A stretch of DNA of 64,000 nt, taken from the NCBI RefSeq assembly GCF_002105155.1, contig NW_019029019.1:1-64000 (forward strand). The letters are read 5' to 3'. The DNA is from Lobosporangium transversale. Lineage: Eukaryota. The notes beneath the pieces are model-generated. The model saw only the letters and a program-made list of their open reading frames with translations. It did no database searches and had not been told where the DNA came from. Shown here piece by piece: positions 17,539 through 44,367 of this stretch. How positions within the stretch are numbered: position 1 is the stretch's first letter; the number at the start of each line of letters is the position of its first letter. The position numbers were made by a program, and so were the translations under genes.

Positions 17539-17843
17539 GTTTTTTTGTGTGTGTGTGTATGTGTAGTGCTGCGAGAACTGAATGTGGATCGCAGCACCAC
17601 ATTGTCCGAGTATTTATTCATTCATTTTCTACATATAAAATTGATATCCCAATGTAAATTATATTATCCTTTTGTACGTGTACATTTGTACGTGTGATCA
17701 GATATGCAATAAGCAACAACTCTCTCCCTCCTCGAGGAGAACGAAGCATGAGTTCGTGGTTCAGGTACAGAGCATATGAGGCTGTGCTGAAAAAGAAAAA
17801 AAAAAATGCTGATTGCTTAGAGACCATTATTTCTCCCTCTCTC

Positions 17844-20410: not shown

Positions 20411-22007
20411 TGGAGGTATCCTCAGGCTTATTTGTAGTCGTTTTTTTTTTTTTTTTTTTTTTTTTGTGCTTGGCTCCTTGTGGAATCATTTCAAGCCATT
20501 CTTTTTTGTACTAGGTTTCTTGTAGTGACCATTGTTAATTAAGATAAGTGAGAAAATGAGAAAGGCAAAAAAAAGGAAGGGAAAAATAATGAATGAAAGC
20601 TTGGAAAGAGGAAGAGAGGAAGAAGAAGAAGAAAGGGATGCGACTAAAAAGCAAGTGAGTGCATAAATGAAGTTAAAGAAAGTTGGACCATGCCATTTTC
20701 TTGATCATTGCGACGTCAAAGCCAGCCATATCTTTTAGGAAAGAGGGGTTCCCAATAGTTTCGTGTAAAGAAAAGGGGAGCCATGCCACGATAGATATTT
20801 AGCCAGGTGCTAGGACGACAATTATATTATAGAAAGAATTTGTCGTCCTAGTACCCGCCAAGCCTGGTGCGTGCACAGATCCTCTCTGCACCGCTAGGTT
20901 GGTGATAAGCTTAGAAAAAGTGAGAAAAAAAAAGAGACCAGTGATTTGGGTGTGTGTAGTTATAAACATACCCAGCAGCCACACAGAGAACGACCGTGGA
21001 ACGAGCAAATTTGCCCCTTTAGCTTTCATCAACTCATGCAGGCCAGGTCCAGTTCCTACAAGAAGAAAACAGCCAGCTATTGGATTCTTGCCACCCATGT
21101 GAAGCCACAGTTATGGTGCATAGGAGCAACGTCGGTGTTCCGGCCTCCCGATTTGCATACCAAGGATGACCAATCAGCAGTATAAAACAACTAGCAATAA
21201 CCAAGCAAAAACAAGCCAGCAAAAATCAATCAATAAAAATCAATCAGTAGAAAAATCATTAGAATCCATTTATCAAGCTTTGTCATCGCGATGCTACCAC
21301 GGCCATCTTTAAAAGGCCTCCGCCCCTCTGCGCATTTCCCAATTCACCTTCTTCTACCCAGATTAAAGATAAACAAGCGTCTATCTTTATTATTCTCTAG
21401 CTCCATCTTGGTTTCTTTATGCTGAGGTATGTTGCCGAGTCAGCCTCCATACTGATCTAAAAAATGTTTTGAAAAAAAAAAAAAAAAAAAACGGTGGGAA
21501 GTGCCTTGCGCATATGGCATCTCAAATGTGGCCTAGAAAGTTTAAACTCATCAGGATGGCAGCAAGAACTGTGAGGGGTTTCCGCGTTCGCCTCGCGAAG
21601 CGCTCGAGAAAGCAATTATTGGGGAGATCGACTCTCCCTTCACACCTTCACAAGTTTGTAAGTAAAAGGATCTTAGTTTTCATATGCTCGAGCAATGCCA
21701 TTCTTCTGTCTATGGAAACTTAGACTAACTTCAACTTGTACATGTAACAAATCAAGGGTATGCCACAATATTATATTGAGATACGTTGTGTTCTCCCTTG
21801 CCCAAACCCTCCACTTTGGCTTCTTCAATTATTTTCTCATTTTGATTGTTTATTTCTTCGGGATTAGGATTTCCTGGTACCACGTCGACCTCATTGCGGA
21901 TTGCTCATACCATCCAGAATAAGGTAAGTTGTGTATTGTTCTAAAAAATGAGTGAGAGTTTTCTAGAGTCATTGCCGGCCCCTCTGAATTCTTTCTGCAT
22001 TTGCTAG

Positions 22008-23904: not shown

Positions 23905-24329
23905 GTCGAGGCTCTGCATCAATACCGCAAGGTCTTCAGCATGAAGAAGGAACTAGAGTCTTGTATCAGTAGTTATATCAACTTGTCATCAAATAAACTG
24001 ATTGCTCGCATGGATTAACGTGACTCTGAGACCTTGATGGTGCCACGAAATGCATGAAAAGATTGCTATCACGATCCAGTTAGATACCCTTAAGATACAA
24101 GAGTTGTTGGCAGTTCCGTGGTTGTGCATTTGACTTTGTTCTTTATCGCCTTTTGTTCATACTTGCCCCTGATTATCCACAGAATTGGCACTGAGTGTTC
24201 ATACGCCATTATAGTCTTATTAATTTAGGGCTATCACTTTGGATGGATTTCTTATCCATCGAACCCTCCCTTATTGCTCCTGTAACACTTGTTCGTAGTA
24301 CGTGGGATTACTGGCGCCATGTCAAGCCA

Positions 24330-24648
24330 CACAGACAGACGTTTTCTTAATGCGAGCAACGCTTGTATTCAAAATGTGGCTGGATTGAGTGAAACCAGCA
24401 GGAAGCTTTTAGAGCAACATGGAACCATAGCCAAGCAATCTCCGTCTTTAGTCAAACATGAGGAGTCCAAACAGATTCTGACGGCATCATCAGTGGCATT
24501 CAAGCCTAGAGCAGCCCTCAGTCAGGTGGATTGCTGTCAAAATTCATCAACAGAGGCGCTCTTAGGGACAGTAGTTTTGAGTGAGGGGCTACCATCGGTA
24601 GCAGTGATAAGGTCAATTAGATCGACCAAAGACTACCAGTTCAAATAC
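24330..24648 (+). pseudogene. Orphan 3' fragment of a NACHT-WD40 gene (post-WD40 tail only)
   Basis: FLNASNACIQNVAGLSETSRKLLEQHG...KDYQFKY aligns by eye with VLNASKIRIQDVDGLGEANRKLLEQRG...RDFRFKY at the end of the 46634-52796 gene. Confidence 0.85.
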
Positions 24649-25163
24649 AGAGGTGGCGTGCAATAAGTGAAGAGAGAGATGACCAAGAGAGGCAGGTAAA
24701 GAAGTTTGAGAGAAGCGGAAGAGAAGTGACCAAGTAAGACCAAGAGGTGAAGAAAGAAGCGATAAAGTCCATTCAGCTTTACAGAACATTATTGCAGCGG
24801 ATCCACTTCTTGGTCCAAAGCCTCATGAAACAAAAACAAAAATACATAAAGGACTATTTTCTTTTTCTACAATCAATGCAATGAGACAGGAGTGAACAAA
24901 TGGCAATTGCATGCTAATTAAACATTTAGCGATGATGGTGAAGAAGATTCAGGAAGGTTAGACCTGAGTTTAGTGCTTTGATTTCTTTTGCCACCAATGT
25001 TAGACGAGAAGTGGATAGGCAACTTGGTATGTAATTTTTTTTTTTTTTTTTTCTTTTTCATCCGCAGTCAATTGTTGTGAGTTGTAATCAAAAATGGCTT
25101 GACGGTGTGAAATATCTAATAAACATGGTGCAATGCTGCGATACTGTCTACCTTTTCTATCGC

Positions 25164-25238
25164 AATCCTAATAATCCTAACAATCCTGACAATCCCGACC
25201 ACCCTGACAATCCTGACAATCCTGACAATCCTGACAAT
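25164..25238. repeat. 9-bp tandem repeat (AATCCTGAC)n, about 8 units, mirrored at about 37854-37928
   Basis: Directly visible. Confidence 0.9.
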
Positions 25239-26278
25239 GCAGTTCCTCAAAGCAGTAAGACAGGCAAGACAATGTGTTTCTCGGGATAGCTTTGTTTAAG
25301 GTTGCGACTACGCACATCTACATCTCTGCGTCATAGTGCAGTAAAATATATTCACCCCACTCCGCCCACTCTCTGCTCTCTTTGTTGTCTTGCAATCTTA
25401 CCAAAACAAGCAAACAAACAAACTCTGTTGGTATGAGAGCACAGACCACGCAGCAAAGAGCTGCAAACGAAAATAAAAATAAAAAGAGCCAGGATGCTGT
25501 TGATTGTCAAAGGCAGATGGGATTGTAGCCAGATGGATGCTTGTTGGATATTTCAGAGGATGAAGAGAAATTAAATGGGTTTTCATTCAATAGCATTAGA
25601 GGGGAAATGGGACTGCACTTTGTTGAAAAAAGATGAAAAAACCTCCAAATTGCGAAGCGCTTTTCATACGGAAAAAAGGTCCCACAATCGATCGACCATG
25701 TCAAAGGTTGGTGACAGATGAAAGAAAGCAAGCCACTAGGTCCTGACAACGTATAAAAAGGCCTCTCTTTCCTTTCTCTTTTGAATCTGTAACGGTGTAA
25801 CGGCCTCCAAAGCGTTGAGTTAGTGCGCTCGAGAGTACTAGCCAATGTCCAACGGACTCCATTTGCAGCCTGCAGGACGCTGTAGGTTGGATGGCGGGTT
25901 GGGCCCTGCGACGGGCGTGTCGGTAGACTGCTCTAGGGTTTATGGACCGGGGGGCGCGCAACCAGACCACCTCCACGTGGTGCGCCCTGGGCTGTCTGCT
26001 TCGCGGCAGACAGGCGAAGAGTCTGGTGTCTTTTTGTTATTTATTTATGCACAACTACCCATCAACACTCTACTGCCCATTATGGGTGTCAAAATGGAAA
26101 TAAAAAAAAGATCTTTCTGGCATCGTCATGTTTATATGGCAATGGTGACTTCATAATGAGAAAGCCGCAGCTTTTATTGTCCTTTCTCTAGAGTCCAAGT
26201 CTTTGTCGCAAGGCCAGCATGGGATCTCCTTTTTCTGCCCACTTTCTTAGACCTGCAGAACTGTGTATCGAGCTCGTT

Positions 26279-26330
26279 GTCTTGTCTCGTTTGTCTTGTC
26301 TCGTTTGTCTTGTCTCGTTTGTCTTGTCTT
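26279..26330. repeat. 14-bp tandem repeat (GTCTTGTCTCGTTT) x3.5, mirrored at about 36762-36813
   Basis: Directly visible. Confidence 0.9.
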
Positions 26331-27870
26331 GGCAAGTGCGCCACCAAATTGAAACATCTGCACTCATCAATAACATCTTCAGCCTTGTTCAGGCGATTTT
26401 TTCTTAAAGTCATTGAATGGGCGCCCCCATTTCAACAATGCCATCGCAACATGCATCTTCAGCCATTGACCATTTCTGAATTAGTCCAATTACCTGAAAA
26501 CATGAGCATTCTTGTTGACGAAAAATATTACAGAAATTGTCAACGTGTCTGTAAGGTTTTCCACATTGCTTTGCCATGGCTCTTATCATTATAGTCTTTG
26601 ATCAAGTACCACGTATCATACCATCTCGACGAATGCCTACCATTGCCAGGGTGTGGCTCTTCAGATCATACAGACCATAGCACTGTCGAGTTTGTTCATC
26701 TGACTTACTCATCTAACCAAGTTCCATAGCCCCATACGACAGACTGAATGTTCCTTCAATGACCGAGACTCATAGTTACCCTTGGGATTGGAGCTTTGGA
26801 GAGTCCCTATATTATCACCTTGCGTGCGATAAATAAAACTGGTCTGTACTTGCTGCTTTGTATCAGTTTGAAGTAAATGTCTTTGAGCGACACAAGTATC
26901 TTTACTCTATTCTGCATATGGCCAAAGACCGTATCACTTCGCAGGCCTCTTAATCCTTAATCAACGGCGCTTGTTGGGGGATACTAGCTCGAAAGTGTCT
27001 AAAGTTGCAGAGCTTACATCCCAATCCTCATAGCTGCAGGGCCAACGGTGAAGACGACAGGGCAGTATCTACAGAATGGAGCTCCTTCAATATTCATGTG
27101 CATTTCCGTGTCTGAAGGGTTTAAATTTGAAGGGCGTCTTATCAAGCAGTGAAGAGATGGCAGTTATCCTGGGACACACAAAATCGTGGACGATGTTAGG
27201 ATTAAGCAGGACTTTCTCAGCTTGATTAGATAAACTATCAGAACCGAAAGACCTAGAACATCTAAAAATCCAGCCATGATCGTCGTGGAGCGGAAGGACT
27301 TGAAGAAGCGATATGGATTGTAGAGCAATGGCTTAGGATCAACGAACCGAGACCACATAGAAATTCTGCTTGGTAAAAGAATGTGGTGTCTTCGGTAAGA
27401 GAAAAAAAAAAAAAAAACTACAATAGAATAAAAAATAGATGCATTTATTGAGCATATCGTGGTCTTTAGTAACCGTCGAGTTTTGGAGGGAAACTGTGTT
27501 TGCTCTCCTATAGTCTCTCATGAAGCCCAAGCACGCGATCGCTTAAGTTTTGGGTTATGAATAGCTGAATGGATGTATATAAAACTACTTTGCGTCCGAT
27601 TCAGATATCTGACAGACAACTTGAGACGAAAGATCAAGAAATGCCTCTCAAGAATGTCTTCAAGATGTCGCCCACGAAGCAACTGCCGCAGTGAAAGGCT
27701 TCTGCAAAAGGATCTAGTCTTGAGAGACACACATGAAGCTTTGGAAGGCATATATTTTCTCACTCTTGTCATGCGGTGGCGAAGATTTTAAGAAAAAGGA
27801 TGCATATGTTACTCAAAAGAGAAATGAGGGAGCCTTGCATTCTGTCCTCATCCATCCAAGTACCACCGAC

Positions 27871-30800
27871 ATGGCGGAACATCAATACCAACAATTTCGA
27901 AGGGCTGGCATTATTGAGAGAGTTTGTGTCAGAATTGCTTCTACCTTTGCAAACAATGGCAGCTCGTCCTGCCATGTGAGTCTGCAAGACATTCGAGACG
28001 TGTTTCCAGATGCACAACGATTCAAACTGGAAGGACTTCCCATTCCATTCCTCATAGACCCTAATGGGAACAGGTGTGTTACTGATTATGGAGCGCTTTA
28101 ACAATTATCTTTGGAATATAAACGAAAAAACTCAATCTAGCATATTCTGTCTTCTTATCAGAGTCGAGCCACCATGCATTGCATTCTATCCTTACAAGAT
28201 TCTGGATGTCATTACAGAAGCGCCGCAGTTAGGAAACAGCAATAGCAGCAGCAGCAGCACTGAAGCTAGCAGTACCAACGTCAGCAGCACCAACACCAAC
28301 ACCAACACCAACACCAACACCAACACCAACACCAACACCAACACCAACGCCAACACCAACACCAGCACAAATACCAACACCGACAATACCAACTGCAGCT
28401 GCATTAGCAACAGCAATCACAGCACCGCCATCCACTTGCCTACATTGAGAAAGTCAGCAAAGTATGGGCGGGATACTCCTTCACCATTATCAAACTTGAT
28501 TCAATCTTTCAATTCACTCCTTACTACTCGCAACAATGCACATATCGAGGCGGTCAACTTTAACCTTGTGAAGGTTGCGGATTTGCTCTTGGAGGCCGAA
28601 GAGAAGGACGACAAGGTGGCTAATATGCTTTTGGAAACCAAAGAAAAGGACAGCGAGCTGTTTGAACTGAAAGATAAGGTGCTTAGTCTGGTATTGGAAA
28701 CCAAAGAGAAGGACAGCGAGATGTTTAAACTACAAGAGAAGATGCTTAAACTGCAAGAGGAGATGCTTAAACTGCAAGAGGAGATGCTTAAACTGCAAGA
28801 GGAGATGCTTAAACTGCAATTGGAAGCTACGGAGAAGAATGAAGAAATGCAGCATCAAAGCCTCAACAAACTTGCCCTGCTTCTACAGCATGTTGATGCT
28901 ATTCTCACCCAGAATACCGGACTTCACGAATATCTATTTCCCCGACTATTTATCATTTTACCTGTCGACCACACCAAGTGGGACCCAATGAATGTCTTGA
29001 AGAACAAGTTCCGTGTTCATTTCCTATGTGAATGTGGAGACCACGCTACAATGGCAAGCAAGAGTAGTCAGAGTCAACTCCATATTGTCAATCATGATGG
29101 GTACGAGATCCGAGACAGCGCGGGATTCTTCCGCAAGTATGGAAAGTACATGTTCATCCTCTTACAGTGGTTCAAGCTAGGAATGTCTTCGTCTGCATCT
29201 CTGGCACTATCCCCAGATTCGATAGATGCCGGTATCGATTGTTCAATCGACTATATGGAAGCACTCTCTAAAGAGGACCCAGCTTTGAGCAACATTGCTA
29301 CAATCGATGACTATGATGGACCGAAAGGATCTGATTTTCAAAATGTGAGGACATTCCTTCGAATCAATGATGAAGGCAGGAAATTCGGGGATTTGTACAG
29401 GATCATGACCGAAACAGGCCGGGTCAAATGGGTTTGTCTCGAACACTGTCGCTCGATGTATGAAGAAAAAGGACAGAAGGCATTTATAAATGCAGTGAAA
29501 GTGAATAATGGCGAATATAACTGGCATCTTGGTAAAGTAACTATCACATTGGGGTACAGAGAGGGAGCTAAAGAGCTCTTCGATGCACTAACCAGTTCAA
29601 GACGAGTTTACGAGTTGGATATCACATTTGGCTGGGATTGGACGGAGATTGATCTTGAAGCATTTGAGAATGCTTTGGCAGTGTCGAGTGTATCGAATCT
29701 TCGACTTGGCCTTGTACCGACCGACATAAAAGTATCCACAACGTCTGCGCGATATGAAAGCCTTATTCGCATTATAGAGCTCAGTAATATGAAAACAATC
29801 CATATTACTCTAACTCAGGACCACATAAAGCTTCTCAGTTTACGGCCCAGAAGATCGTCATGTCTTCAAAAGCTGACGTATGAGGTGAAGGCTCAATGGA
29901 TTGGAGTCATTGAATTACAAGGACTTGTAAATTCACTCAAGACTGGCGCGCCATTGACGATTTTGAACTTGCGTGACGGCTCAATCAAGGATGAAGGGGC
30001 TCTGGCACTGTCAGAGGTACTCAAGGTTAATACTAGTTTGACGACTTTGGACTTGGGTTACAACTCAGTTGGGGATGTAGGGGCTCAGGCATTGTCAGAG
30101 GCACTCAAGGCTAATGCAACACTAGCAACTTTGGACTTGTGGGACAACTCGATCGAAAAGGAAGGAGCTCTGGCATTGTCAGAGGCACTCAAGGTTAATA
30201 CTAGTTTGGCGACTTTGAACTTGGGTTACAACTCAATTGGGGATGAAGGAGCTCTGGCATTGTCAGAGGCACTCAAGGCTAATGCAACACTAACAACTTT
30301 GGACTTGTGGGACAACTCGATCGAAAAGGAAGGCGCTCAGGCATTGTCAGAGACGCTCGAAGTCAATGCAACTTTAACGACCTTGACCTTGGGCAACAAC
30401 AGAATTCGAAAGGAAGGAGCTCTGGCATTGTCAGAGGCACTCAAGGTTAATACTAATTTGTCGACTTTGGCCTTGGATGGCACCTCGATTGGAAAGGAAG
30501 AAGCTCTGGCATTGTCAGAGGCACTCAAGGCTAATGCAACACTAACAACTTTGGACTTGTGGGACAACTCGATCGAAAAGGAAGGCGCTCAGGCATTGTC
30601 AGAGACGCTCGAAGTCAATGCAACTTTAACGACCTTGACCTTGGGCAACAACAGAATTCGAAAGGAAGGAGCTCTGGCATTGTCAGAGGCACTCAAGGTT
30701 AATACTAGTTTGACGACATTGGCCTTGTGGTACAACTCAATTGGGGATGAAGGAGCTCTGGCATTGTCAGAGGCGCTCAAGATTAACACTAGTTTGACGA

Positions 30801-31033
30801 CATTGGACTTGGGCAACAATGGAATTCGAAAGGAAGGAGCTCTGGCATTGTCAGAGGCACTCAAGATTAATACTAGTTTGGCGACTTTGAACTTGCGTAG
30901 CAACTCAATTGTGGATGAAGGAGCTCTGGCATTGTCAGAGGCGCTCAAGATTAACACTAGTTTGACGACATTGGACTTGGAGCCCAACTCAATTGGACAA
31001 TTTCAGAAGCACTCAAGGAAAACGCAGTTTTAA
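27871..31033 (+). CDS. LRR protein copy A, ~1024 aa: small N-terminal header, (TN)n linker, coiled coil, Cys/His domain, 13 RI-type 28-aa LRRs (exons 27871-28073, 28162-31033)
   Basis: ATG 27871 MAEHQYQQF...LQDIRDVFPDAQRFK; in-frame GT-AG intron 28074-28161; repeats LxxLxLxxNxIxxEGAxALSEALKxNxx; the last repeat is frameshifted. Confidence 0.9.
28289..28362 (+). repeat. Coding (ACCAAC)n microsatellite giving a Thr-Asn linker (mirrored in copy B)
   Basis: Directly visible. Confidence 0.9.
28722..28818 (+). repeat. Coding 21-bp tandem repeat giving the heptad MLKLQEE, about 4.5 units (mirrored in copy B)
   Basis: GAGATGCTTAAACTGCAAGAG units. Confidence 0.9.
29954..30996 (+). repeat. 84-bp coding minisatellite (LRR array A, 13 units)
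   Basis: Near-invariant GCTCTGGCATTGTCAGAGGCACTCAAG every 84 bp. Confidence 0.95.
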
Positions 31034-31617
31034 CTCAATAAATAAGAGCGTCTTAAGCGTCAAATAAGGGACACTGATGCTGTTAGGCACACCCAGGACT
31101 GACTGACCGACTTTGGATCTTTTTTTGGGATACTTGATTGGTTGATGGTTGAAATAGCTCTAGAATAGTTAAAGAAAATAGTTTGGTTTAAATAAAAGGC
31201 TTGCTTGTAGCGGCCAAGCGGCCATGACAGCGTTGGCTTTTAATCCTTTGATGTCAGCTCTTCCCCTTTGAAAGCTCATTCCTTATAATGACAGCACATC
31301 AATATCAGTTCAGTGGAAGATTCGTACAAAGCTTTCTCCAATGTTAAGCTACGTAGAGCATAGTTACAAAATGTAAAGACGGTAAATTGTTCTCCCTTAG
31401 AACAGGGACTTCAATCAAGTCAGTTGAGGGAGCCCAAAGAAAAGATTGTCGCTTGGCTGCTACAAGCAAGGTTTTTATTTAAACCAAACTATTTTCTTTA
31501 ACTATTCTAGAGCTATTTCAACCATCAATCAACCAAGTATCCCAAAAGTCGGCCAGGCAGTCCTGAGTATGTCCAACAGCATCAGTGTCCCTTATTTGAC
31601 GCTTAAGACGCTCTTAT

Positions 31618-34600
31618 TTATTGAGTAAAAATTGCGTTTTCCTTGAGTGCTTCTGAAATTGCCAGATCTGCTTCCCCAATTAAGTTGTACCACAAGGCCA
31701 ATGTCGTCAAACTAGTGTTAACCTTGAGTGCCTCTGACAATGCCTGAGCTCCTTCCTTTTGAATTCTGTTGTTGCTCAAGCTCAATGTCGTCAAACTAGT
31801 GTTAACCTTGAGTGCCTCTGACAATGCCTGAGCTCCTTCATCCCCAATTGAGTTGTACCACAAGGCCAATGTCGTCAAACTAGTGTTAACCTTGAGTGCC
31901 TCTGACAATGCCAGAGCTCCTTCCTTTCCAATCGAGTTGCCACCCAAGGTCAAATCTGTTAAAGTTGCATTGGCCTTGAGCGCCTCTGACAATGCCAGAG
32001 CTCCTTCATCCCCAATTGAGTTGCTACGCAAGTTCAAAGTCGTCAAACTGGTATTAACCTTGAGTGCCTCTGACAATACCAGAGCTCCTTCCTTTTGAAT
32101 TCTGTTGTTGCCCAACTCCAATGTCGTCAAACTAGTGTTAATCTTGAGTGCCTTTGCCAATGCCAGAGCTCCCTCATCCCCAATTGAGTTGTACCACAAG
32201 TCCAATGTCGTCAAAGTAGTGTTAACTTTGAGTGCCTCTGACAATGCCAGAGCTTCTTCCTTTTCGATCGAGCTGTGGCACAAGTTCAAAGTCGTTAATG
32301 TTGCATTAGCCTTGAGTGCCTCTGACAATGCCTGAGCTCCTTCCTTTCCGATCGAGCTCTCATTCAAGTCCAATGTTGTCAAACTAGTGTTAACCTTGAG
32401 TGCTTCTGACAATGCCAGAGCTTCTTCCTTTTCGATCGAGTTGTGACACAAGATCAAAGTCGTTAATGTTGCATTAGCCTTGAGTGCCTCTGACAATGCC
32501 TGAGCTCCTTCCTTTTGAATTCTGTTGTTGCTCAAGTCCAATGTCGTCAAACTAGTGTTAACCTTGAGTGCCTCTGACAATGCCAGAGCTTCTTCCTTTC
32601 CAATCGAGGTGCCATCCAAGGCCAAAGTCGACAAATTAGTATTAACCTTGAGTGCCTCTGACAATGCCAGAGCTCCTTCCTTTCGAATTCTGTTGTTGCC
32701 CAAGGTCAAGGTCGTTAAAGTTGCATTGACTTCGAGCGTCTCTGACAATGCCTGAGCGCCTTCCTTTTCGATCGAGTTGTCCCACAAGTCCAAAGTTGTT
32801 AGTGTTGCATTAGCCTTGAGTGCCTCTGACAATGCCAGAGCTCCTTCATCCCCAATTGAGTTGTAACCCAAGTTCAAAGTCGCCAAACTAGTATTAACCT
32901 TGAGTGCCTCTGACAATGCCAGAGCTCCTTCCTTTTCGATCGAGTTGTCCCACAAGTCCAAAGTTGCTAGTGTTGCATTAGCCTTGAGTGCCTCTGACAA
33001 TGCCTGAGCCCCTACATCCCCAACTGAGTTGTAACCCAAGTCCAAAGTCGTCAAACTAGTATTAACCTTGAGTACCTCTGACAGTGCCAGAGCCCCTTCA
33101 TCCTTGATTGAGCCGTCACGCAAGTTCAAAATCGTCAATGGCGCGCCAGTCTTGAGTGAATTTACAAGTCCTTGTAATTCAATGACTCCAATCCATTGAG
33201 CCTTCACCTCATACGTCAGCTTTTGAAGACATGACGATCTTCTGGGCCGTAAACTGAGAAGCTTTATGTGGTCCTGAGTTAGAGTAATATGGATTGTTTT
33301 CATATTACTGAGCTCTATAATGCGAATAAGGCTTTCATATCGCGCAGACGTTGTGGATACTTTTATGTCGGTCGGTACAAGGCCAAGTCGAAGATTCGAT
33401 ACACTCGACACTGCCAAAGCATTCTCAAATGCTTCAAGATCAATCTCCGTCCAATCCCAGCCAAATGTGATATCCAACTCGTAAACTCGTCTTGAACTGG
33501 TTAGTGCATCGAAGAGCTCTTTAGCTCCCTCTCTGTACCCCAATGTGATAGTTACTTTACCAAGATGCCAGTTATATTCGCCATTATTCACTTTCACTGC
33601 ATTTATAAATGCCTTCTGTCCTTTTTCTTCATACATCGAGCGACAGTGTTCGAGACAAACCCATTTGACCCGGCCTGTTTCGGTCATGATCCTGTACAAA
33701 TCCCCGAATTTCCTGCCTTCATCATTGATTCGAAGGAATGTCCTCACATTTTGAAAATCAGATCCTTTCGGTCCATCATAGTCATCGATTGTAGCAATGT
33801 TGCTCAAAGCTGGGTCCTCTTTAGAGAGTGCTTCCATATAGTCGATTGAACAATCGATACCGGCATCTATCGAATCTGGGGATAGTGCCAGAGATGCAGA
33901 CGAAGACATTCCTAGCTTGAACCACTGTAAGAGGATGAACATGTACTTTCCATACTTGCGGAAGAATCCCGCGCTGTCTCGGATCTCGTACCCATCATGA
34001 TTGACAATATGGAGTTGACTCTGACTACTCTTGCTTGCCATTGTAGCGTGGTCTCCACATTCACATAGGAAATGAACACGGAACTTGTTCTTCAAGACAT
34101 TCATTGGGTCCCACTTGGTGTGGTCGACAGGTAAAATGATAAATAGTCGGGGAAATAGATATTCGTGAAGTCCGGTATTCTGGGTGAGAATAGCATCAAC
34201 ATGCTGTAGAAGCAGGGCAAGTTTGTTGAGGCTTTGATGCTGCATTTCTTCATTCTTCTCCGTAGCTTCCAATTGCAGTTTAAGCATCTCCTCTTGCAGT
34301 TTAAGCATCTCCTCTTGCAGTTTAAGCATCTCCTCTTGCAGTTTAAGCATCTTCTCTTGTAGTTTAAACATCTCGCTGTCCTTCTCTTTGGTTTCCAATA
34401 CCAGACTAAGCACCTTATCTTTCAGTTCAAACAGCTCGCTGTCCTTTTCTTTGGTTTCCAAAAGCATATTAGCCACCTTGTCGTCCTTCTCTTCGGCCTC
34501 CAAGAGCAAATCCGCAACCTTCACAAGGTTAAAGTTGACCGCCTCGATATGTGCATTGTTGCGAGTAGTAAGGAGTGAATTGAAAGATTGAATCAAGTTT

Positions 34601-35221
34601 GATAATGGTGAAGGAGTATCCCGCCCATACTTTGCTGACTTTCTCAATGTAGGCAAGTGGATGGCGGTGCTGTGATTGCTGTTGCTAATGCAGCTGCAGT
34701 TGGTATTGTCGGTGTTGGTATTTGTGCTGGTGTTGGTGTTGGCGTTGGTGTTGGTGTTGGTGTTGGTGTTGGTGTTGGTGTTGGTGTTGGTGTTGGTGTT
34801 GGTGCTGCTGACGTTGGTACTGCTAGCTTCAGTGCTGCTGCTGCTGCTATTGCTGTTTCCTAACTGCGGCGCTTCTGTAATGACATCCAGAATCTTGTAA
34901 GGATAGAATGCAATGCATGGTGGCTCGACTCTGATAAGAAGACAGAATATGCTAGATTGAGTTTTTTCGTTTATATTCCAAAGATAATTGTTAAAGCGCT
35001 CCATAATCAGTAACACACCTGTTCCCATTAGGGTCTATGAGGAATGGAATGGGAAGTCCTTCCAGTTTGAATCGTTGTGCATCTGGAAACACGTCTCGAA
35101 TGTCTTGCAGACTCACATGGCAGGACGAGCTGCCATTGTTTGCAAAGGTAGAAGCAATTCTGACACAAACTCTCTCAATAATGCCAGCCCTTCGAAATTG
35201 TTGGTATTGATGTTCCGCCAT
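31618..35221 (-). CDS. LRR protein copy B, ~1171 aa, same N-terminal part as copy A but 18 LRRs (exons 35221-35019, 34930-31618)
   Basis: Mirror of copy A through LRR7, then 11 different repeat units and an intact terminal repeat. Confidence 0.9.
31630..33138 (-). repeat. 84-bp coding minisatellite (LRR array B, 18 units)
   Basis: Same unit on the minus strand. Confidence 0.95.
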
Positions 35222-38200
35222 GTCGGTGGTACTTGGATGGATGAGGACAGAATGCAAGGCTCCCTCATTTCTCTTTTGAGTAACATATGCATCCTTTTTC
35301 TTAAAATCTTCGCCACCGCATGACAAGAGTGAGAAAATATATGCCTTCCAAAGCTTCATGTGTGTCTCTCAAGACTAGATCCTTTTGCAGAAGCCTTTCA
35401 CTGCGGCAGTTGCTTCGTGGGCGACATCTTGAAGACATTCTTGAGAGGCATTTCTTGATCTTTCGTCTCAAGTTGTCTGTCAGATATCTGAATCGGACGC
35501 AAAGTAGTTTTATATACATCCATTCAGCTATTCATAACCCAAAACTTAAGCGATCGCGTGCTTGGGCTTCATGAGAGACTATAGGAGAGCAAACACAGTT
35601 TCCCTCCAAAACTCGACGGTTACTAAAGACCACGATATGCTCAATAAATGCATCTATTTTTTATTCTATTGTAGTTTTTTTTTTTTTTTTCTCTTACCGA
35701 AGACACCACATTCTTTTACCAAGCAGAATTTCTATGTGGTCTCGGTTCGTTGATCCTAAGCCATTGCTCTACAATCCATATCGCTTCTTCAAGTCCTTCC
35801 GCTCCACGACGATCATGGCTGGATTTTTAGATGTTCTAGGTCTTTCGGTTCTGATAGTTTATCTAATCAAGCTGAGAAAGTCCTGCTTAATCCTAACATC
35901 GTCCACGATTTTGTGTGTCCCAGGATAACTGCCATCTCTTCACTGCTTGATAAGACGCCCTTCAAATTTAAACCCTTCAGACACGGAAATGCACATGAAT
36001 ATTGAAGGAGCTCCATTCTGTAGATACTGCCCTGTCGTCTTCACCGTTGGCCCTGCAGCTATGAGGATTGGGATGTAAGCTCTGCAACTTTAGACACTTT
36101 CGAGCTAGTATCCCCCAACAAGCGCCGTTGATTAAGGATTAAGAGGCCTGCGAAGTGATACGGTCTTTGGCCATATGCAGAATAGAGTAAAGATACTTGT
36201 GTCGCTCAAAGACATTTACTTCAAACTGATACAAAGCAGCAAGTACAGACCAGTTTTATTTATCGCACGCAAGGTGATAATATAGGGACTCTCCAAAGCT
36301 CCAATCCCAAGGGTAACTATGAGTCTCGGTCATTGAAGGAACATTCAGTCTGTCGTATGGGGCTATGGAACTTGGTTAGATGAGTAAGTCAGATGAACAA
36401 ACTCGACAGTGCTATGGTCTGTATGATCTGAAGAGCCACACCCTGGCAATGGTAGGCATTCGTCGAGATGGTATGATACGTGGTACTTGATCAAAGACTA
36501 TAATGATAAGAGCCATGGCAAAGCAATGTGGAAAACCTTACAGACACGTTGACAATTTCTGTAATATTTTTCGTCAACAAGAATGCTCATGTTTTCAGGT
36601 AATTGGACTAATTCAGAAATGGTCAATGGCTGAAGATGCATGTTGCGATGGCATTGTTGAAATGGGGGCGCCCATTCAATGACTTTAAGAAAAAATCGCC
36701 TGAACAAGGCTGAAGATGTTATTGATGAGTGCAGATGTTTCAATTTGGTGGCGCACTTGCCAAGACAAGACAAACGAGACAAGACAAACGAGACAAGACA
36801 AACGAGACAAGACAACGAGCTCGATACACAGTTCTGCAGGTCTAAGAAAGTGGGCAGAAAAAGGAGATCCCATGCTGGCCTTGCGACAAAGACTTGGACT
36901 CTAGAGAAAGGACAATAAAAGCTGCGGCTTTCTCATTATGAAGTCACCATTGCCATATAAACATGACGATGCCAGAAAGATCTTTTTTTTATTTCCATTT
37001 TGACACCCATAATGGGCAGTAGAGTGTTGATGGGTAGTTGTGCATAAATAAATAACAAAAAGACACCAGACTCTTCGCCTGTCTGCCGCGAAGCAGACAG
37101 CCCAGGGCGCACCACGTGGAGGTGGTCTGGTTGCGCGCCCCCCGGTCCATAAACCCTAGAGCAGTCTACCGACACGCCCGTCGCAGGGCCCAACCCGCCA
37201 TCCAACCTACAGCGTCCTGCAGGCTGCAAATGGAGTCCGTTGGACATTGGCTAGTACTCTCGAGCGCACTAACTCAACGCTTTGGAGGCCGTTACACCGT
37301 TACAGATTCAAAAGAGAAAGGAAAGAGAGGCCTTTTTATACGTTGTCAGGACCTAGTGGCTTGCTTTCTTTCATCTGTCACCAACCTTTGACATGGTCGA
37401 TCGATTGTGGGACCTTTTTTCCGTATGAAAAGCGCTTCGCAATTTGGAGGTTTTTTCATCTTTTTTCAACAAAGTGCAGTCCCATTTCCCCTCTAATGCT
37501 ATTGAATGAAAACCCATTTAATTTCTCTTCATCCTCTGAAATATCCAACAAGCATCCATCTGGCTACAATCCCATCTGCCTTTGACAATCAACAGCATCC
37601 TGGCTCTTTTTATTTTTATTTTCGTTTGCAGCTCTTTGCTGCGTGGTCTGTGCTCTCATACCAACAGAGTTTGTTTGTTTGCTTGTTTTGGTAAGATTGC
37701 AAGACAACAAAGAGAGCAGAGAGTGGGCGGAGTGGGGTGAATATATTTTACTGCACTATGACGCAGAGATGTAGATGTGCGTAGTCGCAACCTTAAACAA
37801 AGCTATCCCGAGAAACACATTGTCTTGCCTGTCTTACTGCTTTGAGGAACTGCATTGTCAGGATTGTCAGGATTGTCAGGATTGTCAGGGTGGTCGGGAT
37901 TGTCAGGATTGTTAGGATTATTAGGATTGCGATAGAAAAGGTAGACAGTATCGCAGCATTGCACCATGTTTATTAGATATTTCACACCGTCAAGCCATTT
38001 TTGATTACAACTCACAACAATTGACTGCGGATGAAAAAGAAAAAAAAAAAAAAAAAATTACATACCAAGTTGCCTATCCACTTCTCGTCTAACATTGGTG
38101 GCAAAAGAAATCAAAGCACTAAACTCAGGTCTAATCTTCCTGAACCTTCTTCACCATCATCGCTAAATGTTTAATTAGCATGCAATTGCCATTTGTTCAC

Positions 38201-38374
38201 TCCTGTCTCATTGCATTGATTGTAGAAAAAGAAAATAGTCCTTTATGTATTTTTGTTTTTGTTTCATGAGGCTTTGGACCAAGAAGTGGATCCGCTGCAA
38301 TAATGTTCTGTAAAGCTGAATGGACTTTATCGCTTCTTTCTTCACCTCTTGGTCTTACTTGGTCACTTCTCTTC

Positions 38375-38425
38375 CGCTTCTCTCTCGCTTCTCTCTCGCT
38401 TCTCTCTCGCTTCTCTCTCGCTTCT
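38375..38425. repeat. 11-bp tandem repeat (CGCTTCTCTCT) x4-5 at the outer edge of the right arm
   Basis: Directly visible; only one unit at the matching point of the left arm. Confidence 0.85.
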
Positions 38426-41400
38426 TGATCTGTCTCTCTTAACCACCTCTCTCTTCACTTCTTGCACGCCGCCTCTCTACAACCAATCCGCGACGAGTCC
38501 CAGTAAGACATCTCCGCTGCCAAAGTAATGCCGCCATAAGTTCGTATACTATATATTTATAATTGGAAGACCTTACTACCAATGCCAGAACTAAACATCA
38601 AAGTGTCCATGGATCCTGCAGTTATCTCCCATATCTTTGTTCATATCCCTCACTTTTAGCACAGAGGGTGAGCGCTAGAAAAAACACAGCCTACTGAAGC
38701 TGCTACGTCAAAGCAGCAGCATGAGCTGATTAGTATCGTAATTCCTTTTATGTATCGTCCAAAGGATGATTACCTGCACGGGATATTTAATGCGATGGAA
38801 GTAAACGAAAAATCACCAGCTCAGCTCCTATTAGATGTGTTCAATTCGGATAATCAGACCATTGAAGAAGTATTCAGAGCTTTTACAAAAACAAAGGCCT
38901 GCCTCCATAGTCAGGATCTGGGCCTTGCGATTAAAACCCGAAGGGGCTTACAATGGATATGGCGATTTCTCTGAGGCCGGAAAGATATTGTTGTTGAGGA
39001 TGCAAAAAGCGAGCTCAAGGAGCTTACTTGAGTCGACGACCTGAGGCTCCCAACCAACAATCTGTTCCCCACAGTGGTTCAGAAAATATCATTAAGTTAC
39101 TGCTAAACCCTCCACTCCAACCCCTCTATCAGCCTACTTTGGACCACAGCCTCCTCCACAATAAGGGGTAAAGCCCATAAATATCACGCTATTGCTAACA
39201 TAGATCCTGTACATTAATTGCCCAATTGTTCGGGCAGAGTTGCGGCCAAAATGTAGATATTTGGAGCTTGAATTCTCCCCTTTAGATATACAGATATCGG
39301 TAGTAGACGCTGAGGAGCCAAGCGTTGGCTCTCAATAAACCCCTCTTCTTTATCCATCTAAAGACTGAAATGGCCATAACCCTGTGCTTGCTCTTCATAG
39401 CTGTTTATTTTAGCAGTTGTCTTGCTTAAATTAACCGCAACATGAAATGTCTATTGAAGACGTAAAAAAAGTAACGAGAGGTCATTGTGACGTTATCAGA
39501 CCTTTATTTAAGTTGCTTACTCTCATGTTCCTGTCTTCTGTTTTCAACGACCTTCTCAGAACCAAAATTTGATTGCAGCATTGCAATTACATGACTCGTA
39601 TCTGCATTCCGTGCAATAGTGGCAACCATGACAAACAGCCCTTAAATACAAGGTCTGTTTTTATTTGTTTTACCTTTTTATGAATATTATTATTTTTTAT
39701 TAACCCTCCATCGCTGTTGCTGATAGCGGGCCTAAACGAGGACATGTGGCATTTGTGATCGCTCAGGACACAACTGAAGCACATGTCCAGGCAATGAAGG
39801 GTGAGTTCCATATTCAATATTTCAATTGTGTCATCATCGCTAATACATTTTTATTAATCCTAAACTTTTATTCTCTGTTGCAATGGCATAGTTAGTGTCC
39901 CCTGTAAGCGAATCGAGCCTATGGCGGTCTGCAGGCGGAGTGTTAACCTTGGCCGCCTTGGTGAAAGTGAAAGACCTGTGTGAAGGCGAAGGTAAACTAA
40001 TCTTTTGTTTACATTCTATTATACTTTCAATCTTTGTGGTGTGATTGTATATATTTATTTAGGGTCTGTCAAAGACAGATAATAGGATTGCAAGGTACGG
40101 TAAGTGTGGCAGGAACTTGGATAAAGGTATATGGGTAGTTTTTATTACAGGCTGAGGTTTTCTGTATTAAATGGCGATGGCGTTTGTACTTCTACGTCCT
40201 TGAGCTGAATTGCACACATATTATATTAACTATTGATAACTACCAGTATACAGGGTTGCCAATAAACACCTAAGCACCTCAGCATTGCCTTTAAGATTAC
40301 GATCACCCATAAGTATGGTAAAATGCGCTGTCCTCGTAACAGAAGCCCTAGAGGGACGATCGACCAAAGCAATGATGGGGTTTCTAAACCTATTTTTGCT
40401 AGTGTTCATTTAAATAAAGCCTTGTGTTAGGAGACCCTTACGAGGGTCTGTTATACAGTTCAATGTTATCAAGCATGTCACTGACTCTTGATCCTTGTAT
40501 ATAAAGCCCTATTGCTTATCTTCTGCTTTGTAGACATGATGGCTTGTTCGGTAGATGATAAGTAAGAGGAAGTGTATATATGTATATATATATATATACT
40601 ATAGCTGAATTTTTCAAGCAGTATTGGTTAGTTCAGAAAGTGACATTGTCTTCGACCGGTGGAAGCGGAGAATGGTTTATCTCGTATATAAAATAAAAGA
40701 GAGCAAAAAGGAGGATTCATTGTCTACATTTACACCACCAATAGAAGCAAGGGACGACATACCTTTCTGGCTCATGATTCCCGCGCGGTGTTTTTTTTTT
40801 TTTTTTTTTTTTGTTAAATGTAAACAACATTATGGCTAGCCATTTACTCGGAGATCTCCTTCCTAAAAGCGTGCTCAAAAAGACCTAGCATGGACAAAGG
40901 TCGATCATTCTATCAAAAGTTTTTTTTTTTTTTGATTTCGTCCATCAAACAAATATAAAAAAGAAAAGATGGATTGATCCAAGAGTCCGTGGCAAAAAGT
41001 TTAAAAAAAAAAAAAAGAGAGAGATGGACTTAATCAGTTTTTTAAGAAAAAATTTTTAACAGATTGCTCGTACTCGAGTGAAAGCAGCCAAAAACCGATT
41101 GGAACAATGCATTCCGCAATTACAACGAAAAAGGCCTAGAGGGGCCATGCTCTTTAGCCTGGATATGGTAACACATCTAGTCCAGTGAGTAAAGTAAACA
41201 GAAACTCTGCTCTTGAAAAAGTATGTTTGCCATAGAATAAAGAAAAAATTAGACCCCGATCTGATAGGGACATAATATACATGTTAATAATGCGTCAATA
41301 ATCTATCCACGTCCAGGGCCATCATCATAAACAATTGTTACTGCATGCATGCGTACATCCATGTGCATTTGCTAGTCTATAATTCATACCTTATGATTTG

Positions 41401-41656: not shown

Positions 41657-41781
41657 CTACCTCGCTTTCTTTTTCGGCAACGACCCTTGTACAAATATAG
41701 CCATAACTCTCTCTTCCTCCTCAGTCATTTGTATATAATTTTAACGATTTTCATTCACAGAGAGATTAATCAAATACTACC

Positions 41782-44367
41782 ATGATCTCTATTTCAACCC
41801 TCATTATCAGCGCCTGTCTGGCTGTGTTCTCAGTATGGTTATTTGCAGATTACTTTATTCTCTGGAGAGCAAAGATAAAGTCACATTTTGTTTGGAACGA
41901 GATGGACATTTACTGGTCCCTTGTCTGTTTGCTACCTATCCTATTGGGTCACTTCATCACCATCTGGGGGAACTACTTCCGCGCAACGAACCATTTCCAG
42001 CATTCAATCTCAAAAGTCACCACTCCTGCAACAGAGAAGCAGCGCATCTCGTTCTGGGAGCGCCATGATTCATACTTTGGGTACACGACCAAGTTTTGGT
42101 GGCTGGTCGGTCTGGTCGTCACAATGAACATTTACTGGTTCATCCTGACAACGGTCCTGAGCAGGGATGCGTACGTCGAGACCTATGGTTATATCCAGGG
42201 CAATCTCCGTTCCATCGCCTATGGTAGTTCTCAAGCTGTACTGCTTGATACATCCCTCATCCTCTTCCTGGTGCTCCGTCGGTCGATGCTTCATGCCCTC
42301 GGCTTTACTTATCCAGAGATTATCCCTCTCCATCGTTGGCTTGGTGTTTCCATGCTTGTCTGGTCTACAATCCATGTAGCATTTTATAGCGCCTGGCTGA
42401 TCATGGAAGGCAAGTTTGTCAGCGACATTGCATTCACTGATAAGTCCCGTGGTACCCGCAACATGCCTGGAGTCTTTGCATGGGTATGTATCTCACTTTT
42501 TTTTTTTTTTTTTTTTTTTTTTTTCCGTATTGGGCTCCAACTTATTAATCCTGATCTGACTTTCTTCCCTTGCAAAATATACGAATTGGTGTTCACCTTG
42601 ATCCGCTAGATCGGAGTCGTTATAATGTCCTTCTTTGCGCTGCCCCAATTCCGTCGATGGGTTTATCCAGTCTTCGTCTACGTCCATCGGGCAGGCACTT
42701 TTGTTTTCTTCATTGGTCTCATTATGCATTACCCTTCGTACATGCTTTGGTACTACATGCTTCCAGGATTCATCCTCTTCCTTATCGACCGCTTCGTCCC
42801 TAGGATCATCCAAGCACGTACAATCGATCCCATGGCCACCTGTGCTCTTAACACTGACGCCGACATCATCCGTGTCAAGTTTACATCACCAGAACCCATG
42901 AAGCCATATTATCCCGGTGATTACATTACAGTTCAGATCCCTGGTATGGGCCAGATCTTTCATCCATTCACTATTGCCTCGTACTGGCCCGAGGACCCTT
43001 ACTCCATGACCCTGTATATGCGTGTCTTTAATGACTCCAAATGGAGCTGGACCAAGAAGCTTTCCGAACGCTGCGGTACGGATGACAGACCCATTCTGAT
43101 CCATACCAATGTCGAAGGTGTCTTTGGTGACCGTCGTCATGACTATCTCAAGTCTGAAACCATGGTCATCTTCGTTGCCGGCGCTGCCATCACAACCTTT
43201 ATGGCCTTGATCAAAGCCGTTGCTGCCCAAATAGCTGCTTCAAATGACCCGCTCCGCATGCAGCTTCACTTGGTTTGTACATTTCGCACCCGCAGTGAGC
43301 TCCATGCCTACGGGTCATTTTTGCATCAGATCACACGCGATCCTCGTTTTACCTCTTGGCTACATGTTCAAATATTTGTCTCTCGCCCTGACAAGCCCAA
43401 GACTCTGATGGGTGCCCATGCTTACGTTGTCAAGAACGATATCCAAGTTCCAAGCCAAATCAAGAAAAAAGATGGCAAGAATTTCCTCCAGCGTACCGGA
43501 ACCAGACTAAAGCGCGCTCTTTCGGGCCGTACTGCAGTCAATGCCCCCGCACCCATCATGACGTCTGTGGTAGTGGAGAATGCTGGCGAAAGTTTGGAGC
43601 GATTCAGCTCTGCAAAGCCCACTGCTGAAACACTAGACGACATGAAGAGAAATCCTTCAATTGCTGCTGTTATGATTGACCCTTCATCCATGTCTCCATC
43701 ATCTTCACCCTCAATCGAAATAAATCCCATTTCTGAAAAGCCCAGCAGAGCCATGACATACCATGACCAAGCTTTGCCAACGTTTCAGGCTTCGAATGCG
43801 GATGCAGTCTCCAAGAGGCTGGCCCTACTGGACCTCTTTACAAGTGCATTGTTAGTTCTTGTGCCCATGGCCTTTTACTATGGTATGCGTGCTGCCCGGT
43901 TCGAGGGCCAACCGCAATGGTGTCTAACTACCAAGAGCAAAGACAAGTGGACAATCTTTGTCTGCCATTGGACAAATGCCTTAGTCCCTGGTCTTGTTCA
44001 TACAATCGCCATGCTTGCTCTTGGCTACTTTGGCATTGCTGTAGCCAAGAAGATCCATATGCGTCACCACCAGTGTGCTTCTAACAACATCGCCAAGGAT
44101 ATTGAAATATCTGGGGCTCATTCCGAGAAGCAATCGGTTGAGGGCGGTAACTGGGATGAAGGAGATGTCGTCTACACACGAGGCCGTATGGATGTCCGTA
44201 AACAGATCCAAGCCCTGGTGGATCAGGGTGTGGGTATGAAAGAAAATGGAGAAGGGCTGACTACTGTCTTTGCTGGTGGGCCCGAGGGTTTTGTTAACAT
44301 GATTGAGAACCAGGTCAAGAAGGCAGCGTGGGTCGTCGATTTTAATCGTGAAACTTGGGCACCTTGA
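41782..44367 (+). CDS. Ferric reductase / NOX-family transmembrane flavocytochrome, paralog 2 (exons 41782-42483, 42610-44367)
   Basis: Same motifs as paralog 1 (PLHRWLG, STIH, HPFT, VEGVFG, FNRETW) with long identical peptide blocks; in-frame GT-AG intron 42484-42609. Confidence 0.9.

What the first reader, a model, noticed from the sequence alone, without database searches (positions are those of the whole stretch)
24649..38476. 13.8-kb palindrome holding two tail-to-tail LRR genes with a shared body and different sensor arrays: candidate receptor-diversification system
Seen: arms 24708-30530 and 38384-32562 are reverse complements over 5823 bp, covering about 3.1 kb of upstream DNA, the intron, microsatellites and LRR1-7. 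I found only two mismatches. Identity stops inside the LRR array, after which copy A has 6 further units and copy B has 11 different ones, with a 229-bp unique spacer. Known: high-identity repeat arrays are shuffled in fungal HNWD/NLR genes and lamprey VLRs, and palindromic arms undergo arm-to-arm conversion. Inference: with the two 84-bp arrays facing each other, out-of-register crossover inverts the centre and redistributes repeat units between the genes without deleting any, and fold-back conversion copies cassettes. That would generate new binding surfaces on a constant N-terminus.
Basis: partly seen in the sequence, partly recalled or inferred. Interest (0 to 1): 0.9.

Follow-up and report, generated by a model that had tools for sequence, protein, structure and literature searches.

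The report
Mirror-image fungal LRR twins, reshuffled tails
Two mirror-image copies of a predicted sensor gene in a soil fungus share an almost letter-perfect 5.8-kb front part but differ in their repeat tails, most likely because ordinary DNA copying between the neighbours keeps the body identical while the repeats are reshuffled, and nothing shows a dedicated flipping switch.

Summary
The arms 24708-30530 and 38384-32562 match over 5823 bp with 2 mismatches. Short-read contigs carry the arm sequence at about twice single-copy depth, so a fold-back artefact is unlikely. The genes belong to a Mortierellaceae family (closest: Lobosporangium transversale): predicted ubiquitin-like head, coiled coil, uncharacterised domain, 28-residue RI-type LRRs, no NTPase. 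The pair is older than its identity: 86-94% homology continues beyond both ends of the arm. Copy A switches register inside a 29-bp shared window, from unit 7 to an exact 206-bp copy of units 4-end/5/6. Repeat units are mosaics, with excess amino-acid change at exposed positions. Best reading: likely arm-to-arm gene conversion plus out-of-register repeat exchange, as known for Podospora HNWD genes, here on LRRs. A dedicated inversion system is not supported: the one visible event looks non-reciprocal, and a head-to-head NACHT-WD40 pair 12 kb away shows the same homogenisation (2869 bp exact, equal to a contig length in another draft). The inner junctions and the spacer orientation were not verified with reads. 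New variant of a known kind; moderately interesting as a candidate fungal LRR sensor family.

The parts
24647..24707 (.). Older, diverged homology just outside arm A (partner 38385-38476)
   Evidence: 36 matches, 6 substitutions in 24647-24690 vs 38433-38476; alignment
24708..30530 (+). Arm A, 5823 bp homogenised tract (upstream DNA, exon 1, intron, body, LRR 1-7)
   Evidence: arm sequence at 2.0-2.5 times median single-copy depth in contigs of X1, X3, X4
27871..28073 (+). Gene A exon 1, most of a predicted beta-grasp (ubiquitin-like) head domain
   Evidence: fold of paralog P0070 N-half: residues 3-89 match TDP-43 NTD Z 7.7, rmsd 1.9, 68 aligned, and TBK1 ULD Z 6.1-6.2
28074..28161 (+). 88-bp GT..AG intron
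   Evidence: joint 28070-28159 (cut +3) in RNA-type contigs X7; homologous proteins join here
28162..31033 (+). Gene A exon 2: Asn/Thr linker, coiled coil, uncharacterised Cys/His-rich domain, degenerate LRRs, 12 full RI-type LRRs and a frame-shifted cap; spliced product 1024 aa
30502..30707 (+). Exact 206-bp out-of-register copy of 30250-30455; overlaps the end of the arm tract by 29 bp (30502-30530)
   Evidence: junction not verified with reads
30531..31033 (+). A-specific part of the LRR array (units 8-13)
31000..31220 (+). A 3' end and UTR, homologous to B 3' end (about 94% at aligned bases)
31221..31449 (.). 229-bp central spacer
   Evidence: a variant seems to exist elsewhere in the genome
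31450..31658 (-). B 3' end and UTR, homologous to A 3' end
31618..32561 (-). B-specific part of the LRR array (units 8-18, intact cap)
31618..34930 (-). Gene B exon 2; spliced product 1171 aa, first 857 aa identical to A
34931..35018 (-). Gene B intron (mirror of A)
   Evidence: arm identity
35019..35221 (-). Gene B exon 1
32562..38384 (-). Arm B, 5823 bp
38385..38476 (.). Older homology outside arm B, with an 11-bp microsatellite (38366-38425) at the tract end

Best explanation
Two inward-facing LRR paralogs share a 5823-bp near-identical tract inside an older duplication, likely kept alike by recent arm-to-arm gene conversion, while their 84-bp repeat arrays are likely reshuffled by out-of-register copying and their exposed positions are likely under diversifying selection, in proteins predicted to be cytoplasmic non-self sensors. 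Shown: the identity pattern, the older flanking homology, the 29-bp switch window, mosaic units, excess amino-acid change at unit positions 5, 7 and 8, a second twin pair of the family, and no NTPase, signal peptide or transmembrane segment. Inferred history: (1) an older inverted duplication; (2) one or more conversions homogenised the arms at least to unit 6; (3) a later conversion with B as donor ended out of register, pairing the end of B unit 7 with the end of A unit 4, so A became units 1-7 plus its own 5, 6, 10-13 while B stayed unchanged. A 206-bp cassette copy onto A8-A9 fits equally. Conversions that erase the tail differences would be lost, leaving a constant body and two different binding surfaces. 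The inverted layout would allow exchange without deleting either gene, but no dedicated machinery is needed. Inferred protein function: the LRR arc binds a variable ligand, and the beta-grasp head and coiled coil mediate oligomerisation or recruit a partner.
For: Sharp steps from 99.97% to about 94% (inner) and 86% (outer) identity. The arm tract and the 206-bp copy overlap by exactly the 29 bases shared by the ends of units 4 and 7. Among 20 non-redundant units (A8, A9, B7 left out as near-copies), 67% of informative site pairs fail the four-gamete test and linkage falls with distance (Spearman -0.29, permutation p 0.0005). pN at positions 5, 7, 8 is 0.48, against pS 0.30 over all sites (ratio 1.62, bootstrap 1.2-2.1) and pN 0.13 elsewhere. 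The arm sequence is at 2.0-2.5 times median single-copy depth in three DNA runs, and a second allele, matching only P0070/P0071 among 6 readable paralogs compared, is at 1.8-2.2 times. P0070/P0071 have adjacent accessions, share 657 identical residues and differ in LRR number and cap. Of 300 pairs among 25 family members of one long-contig draft, the 8 longest exact shared peptides all join genes on the same contig (20 such pairs); 7 of the 8 end before the conserved LRR array. The NACHT-WD40 pair in this window has a 2869-bp exact tract, and the identical protein P0084 lies on a contig of exactly 2869 bp in a short-contig draft, as expected of a collapsed true repeat.
Against: The junctions A7/A8 and B7/B8 and the link through the spacer were not checked with reads, so A8-A9 could be an assembly slip. 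Contig depth is a rough measure, and contigs hide single-base differences. X1, X3 and X4 may be the window's own strain. No second isolate with a different array or orientation was found. pN/pS was computed on related, recombining units without multiple-hit correction, and positions 5, 7, 8 were chosen after seeing the data. Same-contig sharing also follows from plain local duplication. A's cap is frame-shifted, so A may be impaired. No function has been tested.
Confidence: 0.65

Rival explanations
1. The pair is a dedicated receptor-diversification device: crossovers between the inward-facing arrays would invert the centre and redistribute LRR units between the two genes within a mycelium.
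For: The geometry allows it and conserves the 31 units. An out-of-register junction is present. A second twin pair with the same body/tail split exists. A spacer-like variant contig suggests another locus with a similar centre.
Against: The visible event is non-reciprocal. Only 1 of 300 family pairs in the long-contig draft shares a whole body, and its orientation is unknown. A head-to-head NACHT pair is homogenised too, with the repeats facing outward. In Podospora HIC NLRs, somatic repeat changes were too rare to show in long-read assemblies (PMC12222747, passages).
Confidence: 0.1
2. A single recent event copied one gene's front part over an older inverted paralog; the pair is a neutral or decaying duplicate with no continuing exchange and no sensor role.
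For: One tract with 2 mismatches could be one event. A's cap is frame-shifted. The neighbourhood holds gene remnants. No database protein identical to A or B was found.
Against: The exact A8-A9 copy needs at least two copying events. Both long frames are open for about 1000 codons. The family is spliced in RNA-type contigs. Variation is concentrated at exposed positions.
Confidence: 0.13
3. Part or all of the picture is an assembly artefact: one consensus was used for both arms, or reads were joined out of register in the 84-bp array.
For: An exact 206-bp out-of-register copy is what a repeat slip would give. Long homopolymers are identical in both arms. P0004 and P0072, the same gene in two drafts, differ by one LRR unit.
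Against: An exact arm contig (29831-30112) lies at about twice single-copy depth in X1 and X4, and the window allele at 29171/29195 does so in three runs. The outer flanks differ, which a fold-back would not give. The comparable NACHT tract is matched to the base by a contig length in another draft.
Confidence: 0.12

Closest known systems
Podospora HNWD/NWD NLRs with high internal conservation (het-d, het-e; PMC12222747, PMC13449251, PMC4986451, passages read)
   Same: Near-identical C-terminal repeats, mosaic units, a few hypervariable codons, gain and loss of units, proposed exchange within and between paralogs.
   Different: Here the repeats are RI-type LRRs, not WD40/ANK/TPR; there is no NACHT or NB-ARC domain; the partner is an adjacent inverted twin with an identical body; no allorecognition function is shown.
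Zebrafish NLR-B30.2 family (PMC4852459, abstract and passages read)
   Same: Gene conversion acts differently on body and recognition module; nearly identical bodies carry different C-termini; positive selection on the recognition part.
   Different: Hundreds of genes with NACHT; the variable module is B30.2, not LRR; not described as inverted twins in the passages read.
Giardia vsp inverted pairs (PMC2996952, passages read)
   Same: Tail-to-tail or head-to-head inverted pairs with identical sequence in a variable multigene family.
   Different: There the whole ORFs are identical, 2-4 kb apart, and encode surface antigens; here identity stops inside the repeat array and the spacer is 229 bp.
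Ectocarpus ROCO-LRR and NB-ARC-TPR candidate receptors (PMC3341825, abstract and section list read)
   Same: LRR units reshuffled and under diversifying selection in candidate receptors; somatic recombination proposed.
   Different: There each repeat is its own exon and the proteins carry a GTPase; here the array lies in one exon and there is no Walker A motif.
Palindrome arms kept alike by arm-to-arm conversion, e.g. mammalian Y palindromes (recalled, not read); template switching between short inverted repeats in yeast (PMC8604942, abstract read)
   Same: Arm homogenisation, with possible inversion of the spacer.
   Different: Scale (5.8-kb arms), and a tract end inside a coding repeat array.
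Lamprey variable lymphocyte receptors (recalled, not read)
   Same: LRR modules copied by a conversion-like process to give new binding surfaces.
   Different: VLRs are assembled somatically into an incomplete germline gene from many cassettes; here there are two complete genes and no cassette library in the window.
Mortierellaceae NACHT-pentapeptide-WD40 NLRs shared with Mycoavidus (10.1101/2021.12.02.471044 and 10.1101/2022.03.16.484565, passages read)
   Same: The second inverted pair in this window is of this kind (ARM_5 and WD40; NACHT and a Mycoavidus relative) and shows the same conversion pattern.
   Different: It is a neighbour of the finding, not the finding; the passages read do not mention the LRR family or inverted pairs.

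Membership tests
RI-like (LRR_6, 28-residue) LRR proteins | Tandem 28-residue LxxLxLxxNxI repeats | tested here: met
   PF13516 E 3e-51 and 3e-75; units listed; family profile hits RI, NLRP and RanGAP chains
Fungal NLR (STAND) | Central NACHT or NB-ARC NTPase | tested here: not met
   No such Pfam hit in A, B or four relatives; no Walker A motif in spliced A
Fungal NLR with HIC repeats (HNWD-type) | Repeat units over about 80% alike at DNA level | tested here: met
   Non-copy units differ at 3-26 of 84 bases; TRF 76-83% matches
Fungal NLR with HIC repeats (HNWD-type) | A few hypervariable codons under diversifying selection | tested here: met
   pN(5,7,8)/pS(all) 1.62, bootstrap 1.2-2.1; positions chosen after inspection
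Fungal NLR with HIC repeats (HNWD-type) | Repeat number and order vary among isolates | tested here: inconclusive
   No other allele of A or B found; paralog P0004/P0072 differs by one unit between two drafts, which may be an assembly effect
Fungal NLR with HIC repeats (HNWD-type) | Triggers cell death or allorecognition | not testable with these tools
   none
Inverted repeats homogenised by arm-to-arm conversion | Near-identical tract bounded by older, diverged homology | tested here: met
Inverted repeats homogenised by arm-to-arm conversion | Arms of one strain closer to each other than to the same arm in other strains | not testable with these tools
   no genome held; no divergent isolate assembly available
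Programmed invertible (shufflon-type) systems | Both orientations of the centre present in a population | not testable with these tools
   only short-read contigs were offered
Programmed invertible (shufflon-type) systems | Site-specific recombinase and short fixed crossover sites | tested here: inconclusive
   9 window ORFs scanned, none a recombinase; the other 45 or so ORFs and the rest of the genome were not scanned
Variable lymphocyte receptor-type assembly | Incomplete germline gene plus a library of donor cassettes | tested here: not met
   Both genes are complete frames; self-comparison shows no further LRR cassettes in the 64 kb
Crinkler-type proteins with a ubiquitin-like header | Beta-grasp N-terminal domain matching the Crinkler family | tested here: inconclusive
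   Beta-grasp fold predicted (Z 7.7, Foldseek E 0.19 or worse); no Crinkler Pfam hit

The most novel reading that the evidence does not exclude
Mortierellaceae have an undescribed, NTPase-free class of cytoplasmic LRR immune sensors, and Lobosporangium arranges some as inward-facing twins that act as a two-gene diversity generator: conversion holds a constant signalling body while out-of-register exchange and inversion of the centre deal LRR units between the two tails during vegetative growth, giving a coenocytic fungus a somatically varying repertoire against bacteria or rival fungi.
Probability: 0.1. Interest if true: 0.9.

Novelty: new variant of a known kind. Interest (0 to 1): 0.45.

Why it matters
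Fungal NLR surveys report no LRR sensors (PMC4986451, passages). This family shows the marks of a variable sensor on LRRs: conserved repeats, mosaic units, hypervariable exposed positions and expansion. It does so without an NTPase, in a lineage that hosts endobacteria. The mechanism that maintains high internal conservation is stated to be unknown (PMC13449251, passage). This locus keeps a fresh junction, with a 29-bp switch window between two exact tracts, and a built-in partner, so intergenic repeat exchange is directly testable by long-read amplicon sequencing. The DNA process itself (conversion between neighbouring inverted paralogs) is ordinary.

Tried and rejected
No whole genome is held, so enrichment of inverted pairs could not be counted; adjacency was judged from accession numbers and contig lengths only. 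No read-level view of the inner junctions was obtained. No RNA holder on record was listed; X7 is only guessed to be RNA and is mostly 90-99% alike, so it speaks for the family, not for A or B. No database protein identical to A or B at near or shorter lengths; longer lengths were not searched. The idea that the middle domain is a COR (Roco) remnant, a resemblance from memory, got no support: no hit by Pfam, PDB sequence or fold searches, where LRR, coiled coil and head domain filled the lists; the domain was not folded alone, so this is inconclusive. The atlas search gave only unnamed clusters at 0.90 or less. The wide HMMER search could not be run. Fold-back artefact rejected (different outer flanks, double depth). 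A plain 252-bp tandem duplication in A rejected: A10 differs from A7 at 21 of 84 bases. A plain recent duplication rejected as sole cause because of the older flanking homology. Four relatives with nearby locus tags in Haplosporangium share at most 39 identical residues, so whole-body twins are not a general feature of the family. Earlier findings by place and by sequence: none. Ten paper searches listed no paper on this LRR family or on inverted LRR twins in Mortierellaceae; only listings were seen for most, subscription papers are missing and no supplements were read.
Full report
Observation. The two arms are reverse complements over 5823 bp with mismatches at 24947 and 24957 only. Each carries a two-exon gene (ATG 27871, intron 28074-28161); the spliced products are 1024 aa (A) and 1171 aa (B), identical for 857 residues. 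A has 12 full 84-bp LRR units and a cap that is 13 bases shorter than B's and so frame-shifted; B has 17 full units and a cap. The spacer is 229 bp.

The pair is older than its identity. Homology continues inside (3' ends and UTRs: 196 matches, 13 substitutions) and outside (36 matches, 6 substitutions). At the inner rate about 362 mismatches would be expected in the arm, against 2. An identical tract with sharp edges inside older homology is the expected footprint of gene conversion (established knowledge) and not of one recent duplication.

The inner edge is informative. From 30502 to 30707, A is an exact copy of 30250-30455 (end of unit 4, unit 5, unit 6). The arm tract ends at 30530, so the two exact tracts overlap by the 29 bases that the ends of units 4 and 7 share. 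A10 is not a copy of A7 (21 of 84 differences), so this is not a three-unit tandem duplication. A reciprocal crossover would have left B as units 1-4 followed by 8-18, which it is not. The simplest reading (inference) is a non-reciprocal, out-of-register copy, which also needs an earlier homogenisation to unit 6. An assembly slip would look the same, and this junction was not verified with reads.

Is it real? Seven of 8 listed runs hold part of 23200-32560, four at 0.71-0.72 of its words; all are short-read contigs and may be the window's own strain. Laid on 20561-32560, an exact contig at 29831-30112 has depth 265 in X1 and 20.9 in X4. As single-copy baseline I took 11, 11 and 9 values from tables 3 and 8 (medians 120, 10.4, 8.9 for X1, X4, X3), leaving out rows that looked like merged or multi-copy contigs. 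The arm sequence then stands at 2.0-2.5 times, and a second allele at 29171/29195 at 1.8-2.2 times. That allele gives the residues of P0070/P0071 and of none of the four other readable paralogs compared. The tool warns that summed depth is no copy number and that contigs drop variants, so this supports two near-identical copies, not base-perfect identity along the whole arm. Parts of the upstream DNA reach about 5-6 times, so they recur at other family loci.

What the genes are. The non-LRR body finds 69 relatives, 44 of them at 47% identity or more, almost all Mortierellaceae, best in Lobosporangium transversale at 82%. Pfam shows LRRs only. There is no Walker A motif and no strongly hydrophobic segment (best 19-residue mean 1.2). 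Folding the N-half of paralog P0070 (mean pLDDT 75) gives a beta-rich head, a disordered linker, a 95-residue helix and an alpha/beta domain. The head matches beta-grasp domains (TDP-43 NTD Z 7.7, rmsd 1.9 over 68; TBK1 ULD Z 6.1-6.2; Foldseek rows of the same fold are not significant). The stretch before the conserved array folds as further degenerate LRRs. The middle domain stays unassigned. RNA-type contigs show the intron removed in a family member.

Repeat evolution. Among 20 units (three near-copies dropped), positions 5, 7 and 8 each hold 7 residues. pN there is 0.48 against pS 0.30 over all sites (ratio 1.62, bootstrap 1.2-2.1) and pN 0.13 elsewhere. 67% of informative site pairs are four-gamete incompatible, and linkage decays along the unit (p 0.0005). 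In LRRs these are the x positions of the LxxLxLxx strand on the binding face (established knowledge). The test is crude and the positions were picked after inspection.

Not a one-off, and not LRR-specific. P0070 and P0071 have consecutive accessions on another contig, share 657 identical residues, and differ in unit number (10 and 7 matched units) and cap; their orientation is unknown. Among 25 family members of that draft found, this is the only whole-body twin in 300 pairs. The 8 longest shared peptides all join same-contig genes, and 7 of them end before the conserved array. In this window a head-to-head ARM_5-NACHT-WD40 pair has a 2869-bp exact tract (49911-52779 with 62441-59573) followed on the 3' side by roughly 65-88% homology. 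The tract ends at codon 337 of exon 2, and the WD40 repeats start near codon 630. A short-contig draft holds the identical protein P0084 on a contig of 2869 bp, the length a collapsed true repeat would have. A ferric-reductase-like inverted pair is old and unhomogenised (69-77%). So neighbouring inverted paralogs of sensor-like genes in this genome repeatedly share a constant front and keep different repeat tails.

Comparison with what is known. It works like the Podospora HNWD genes, where unequal crossing-over and exchange between paralogs are proposed to reshuffle conserved repeats (PMC12222747 passages; PMC13449251 passages and section 12), and like zebrafish NLR-B30.2 genes, where conversion acts differently on body and sensor (PMC4852459 abstract and passages). 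It is not an NLR, as it lacks the NTPase. Fungal NLR surveys found no LRR motifs (PMC4986451 passages; PMC10197012 passages). Sordariales NLR clusters and 13 head-to-head pairs are described, with no mention of tail-to-tail pairs (PMC12258605 passages). Identical inverted pairs occur in Giardia vsp genes (PMC2996952 passages). LRR shuffling in candidate receptors occurs in Ectocarpus (PMC3341825 abstract). Mortierellaceae NACHT-WD40 genes are shared with Mycoavidus (two bioRxiv texts, passages). Y palindromes and VLRs are recalled, not read. Ten searches listed nothing on this family; supplements were not read and may list these proteins. Three earlier AI notes from other genomes reached similar readings for inverted LRR pairs; they are not support, but they suggest the pattern is common.

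Verdict. The feature is real as far as could be tested. The best reading is conversion-maintained twins with reshuffled, diversifying LRR tails (0.65). A dedicated inversion system remains possible but is unsupported (0.10). Neutral duplicate 0.13; partial artefact 0.12. New variant of a known kind, interest 0.45: the process is familiar, while the NTPase-free LRR sensor candidates and the fresh, testable junction are the new part.

Noticed in passing
window 46634-52802 (-) and 59460-64000 (+): Head-to-head ARM_5-NACHT-WD40 gene pair, 6793 bp between the exact tracts, with a 2869-bp exact tract (49911-52779 / 62441-59573) that equals the length of the contig carrying identical protein P0084; the right copy has a frame break near 63027.
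   Followed up: yes
window 813-3610 (-) and 41770-44367 (+): Old inverted pair of ferric-reductase-like genes (named by eye, not scanned), 69-77% alike, bracketing the region that holds the LRR twins.
   Followed up: partly
window 24292-24648 (+): Remnant of the C-terminus of a NACHT-WD40 gene directly outside arm A (tblastn E 2e-16 to P0078).
   Followed up: partly
window 22167-23970: Multi-intron gene spliced in RNA-type contigs X7, present in two versions in DNA runs; one ORF of it gave no Pfam hit.
   Followed up: no
window 16341-17697 (-) and 18542-20485 (-): Broken ORFs: one ends in a zinc-knuckle-like motif (retroelement gag-like), another holds a P-loop-like motif as in Crinkler-type genes; both resemblances are recalled and had no Pfam hit.
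   Followed up: no
P0004 and P0072: The same LRR-family gene in two L. transversale drafts differs by exactly one LRR unit: true polymorphism or short-read collapse.
   Followed up: partly
P0002, P0003, P0005, P0006, P0204: Five family members on one contig are mosaics of each other, with exact shared stretches of 324, 124, 85, 62 and 53 residues.
   Followed up: partly
P0069: A protein named from the rotifer Adineta steineri carries both the head and the middle domain of this fungal family: transfer or contamination.
   Followed up: no
window 25209-25531 and 25999-26264: Upstream parts of the arm reach about 5-6 times single-copy depth, so several family loci share this non-coding DNA.
   Followed up: no
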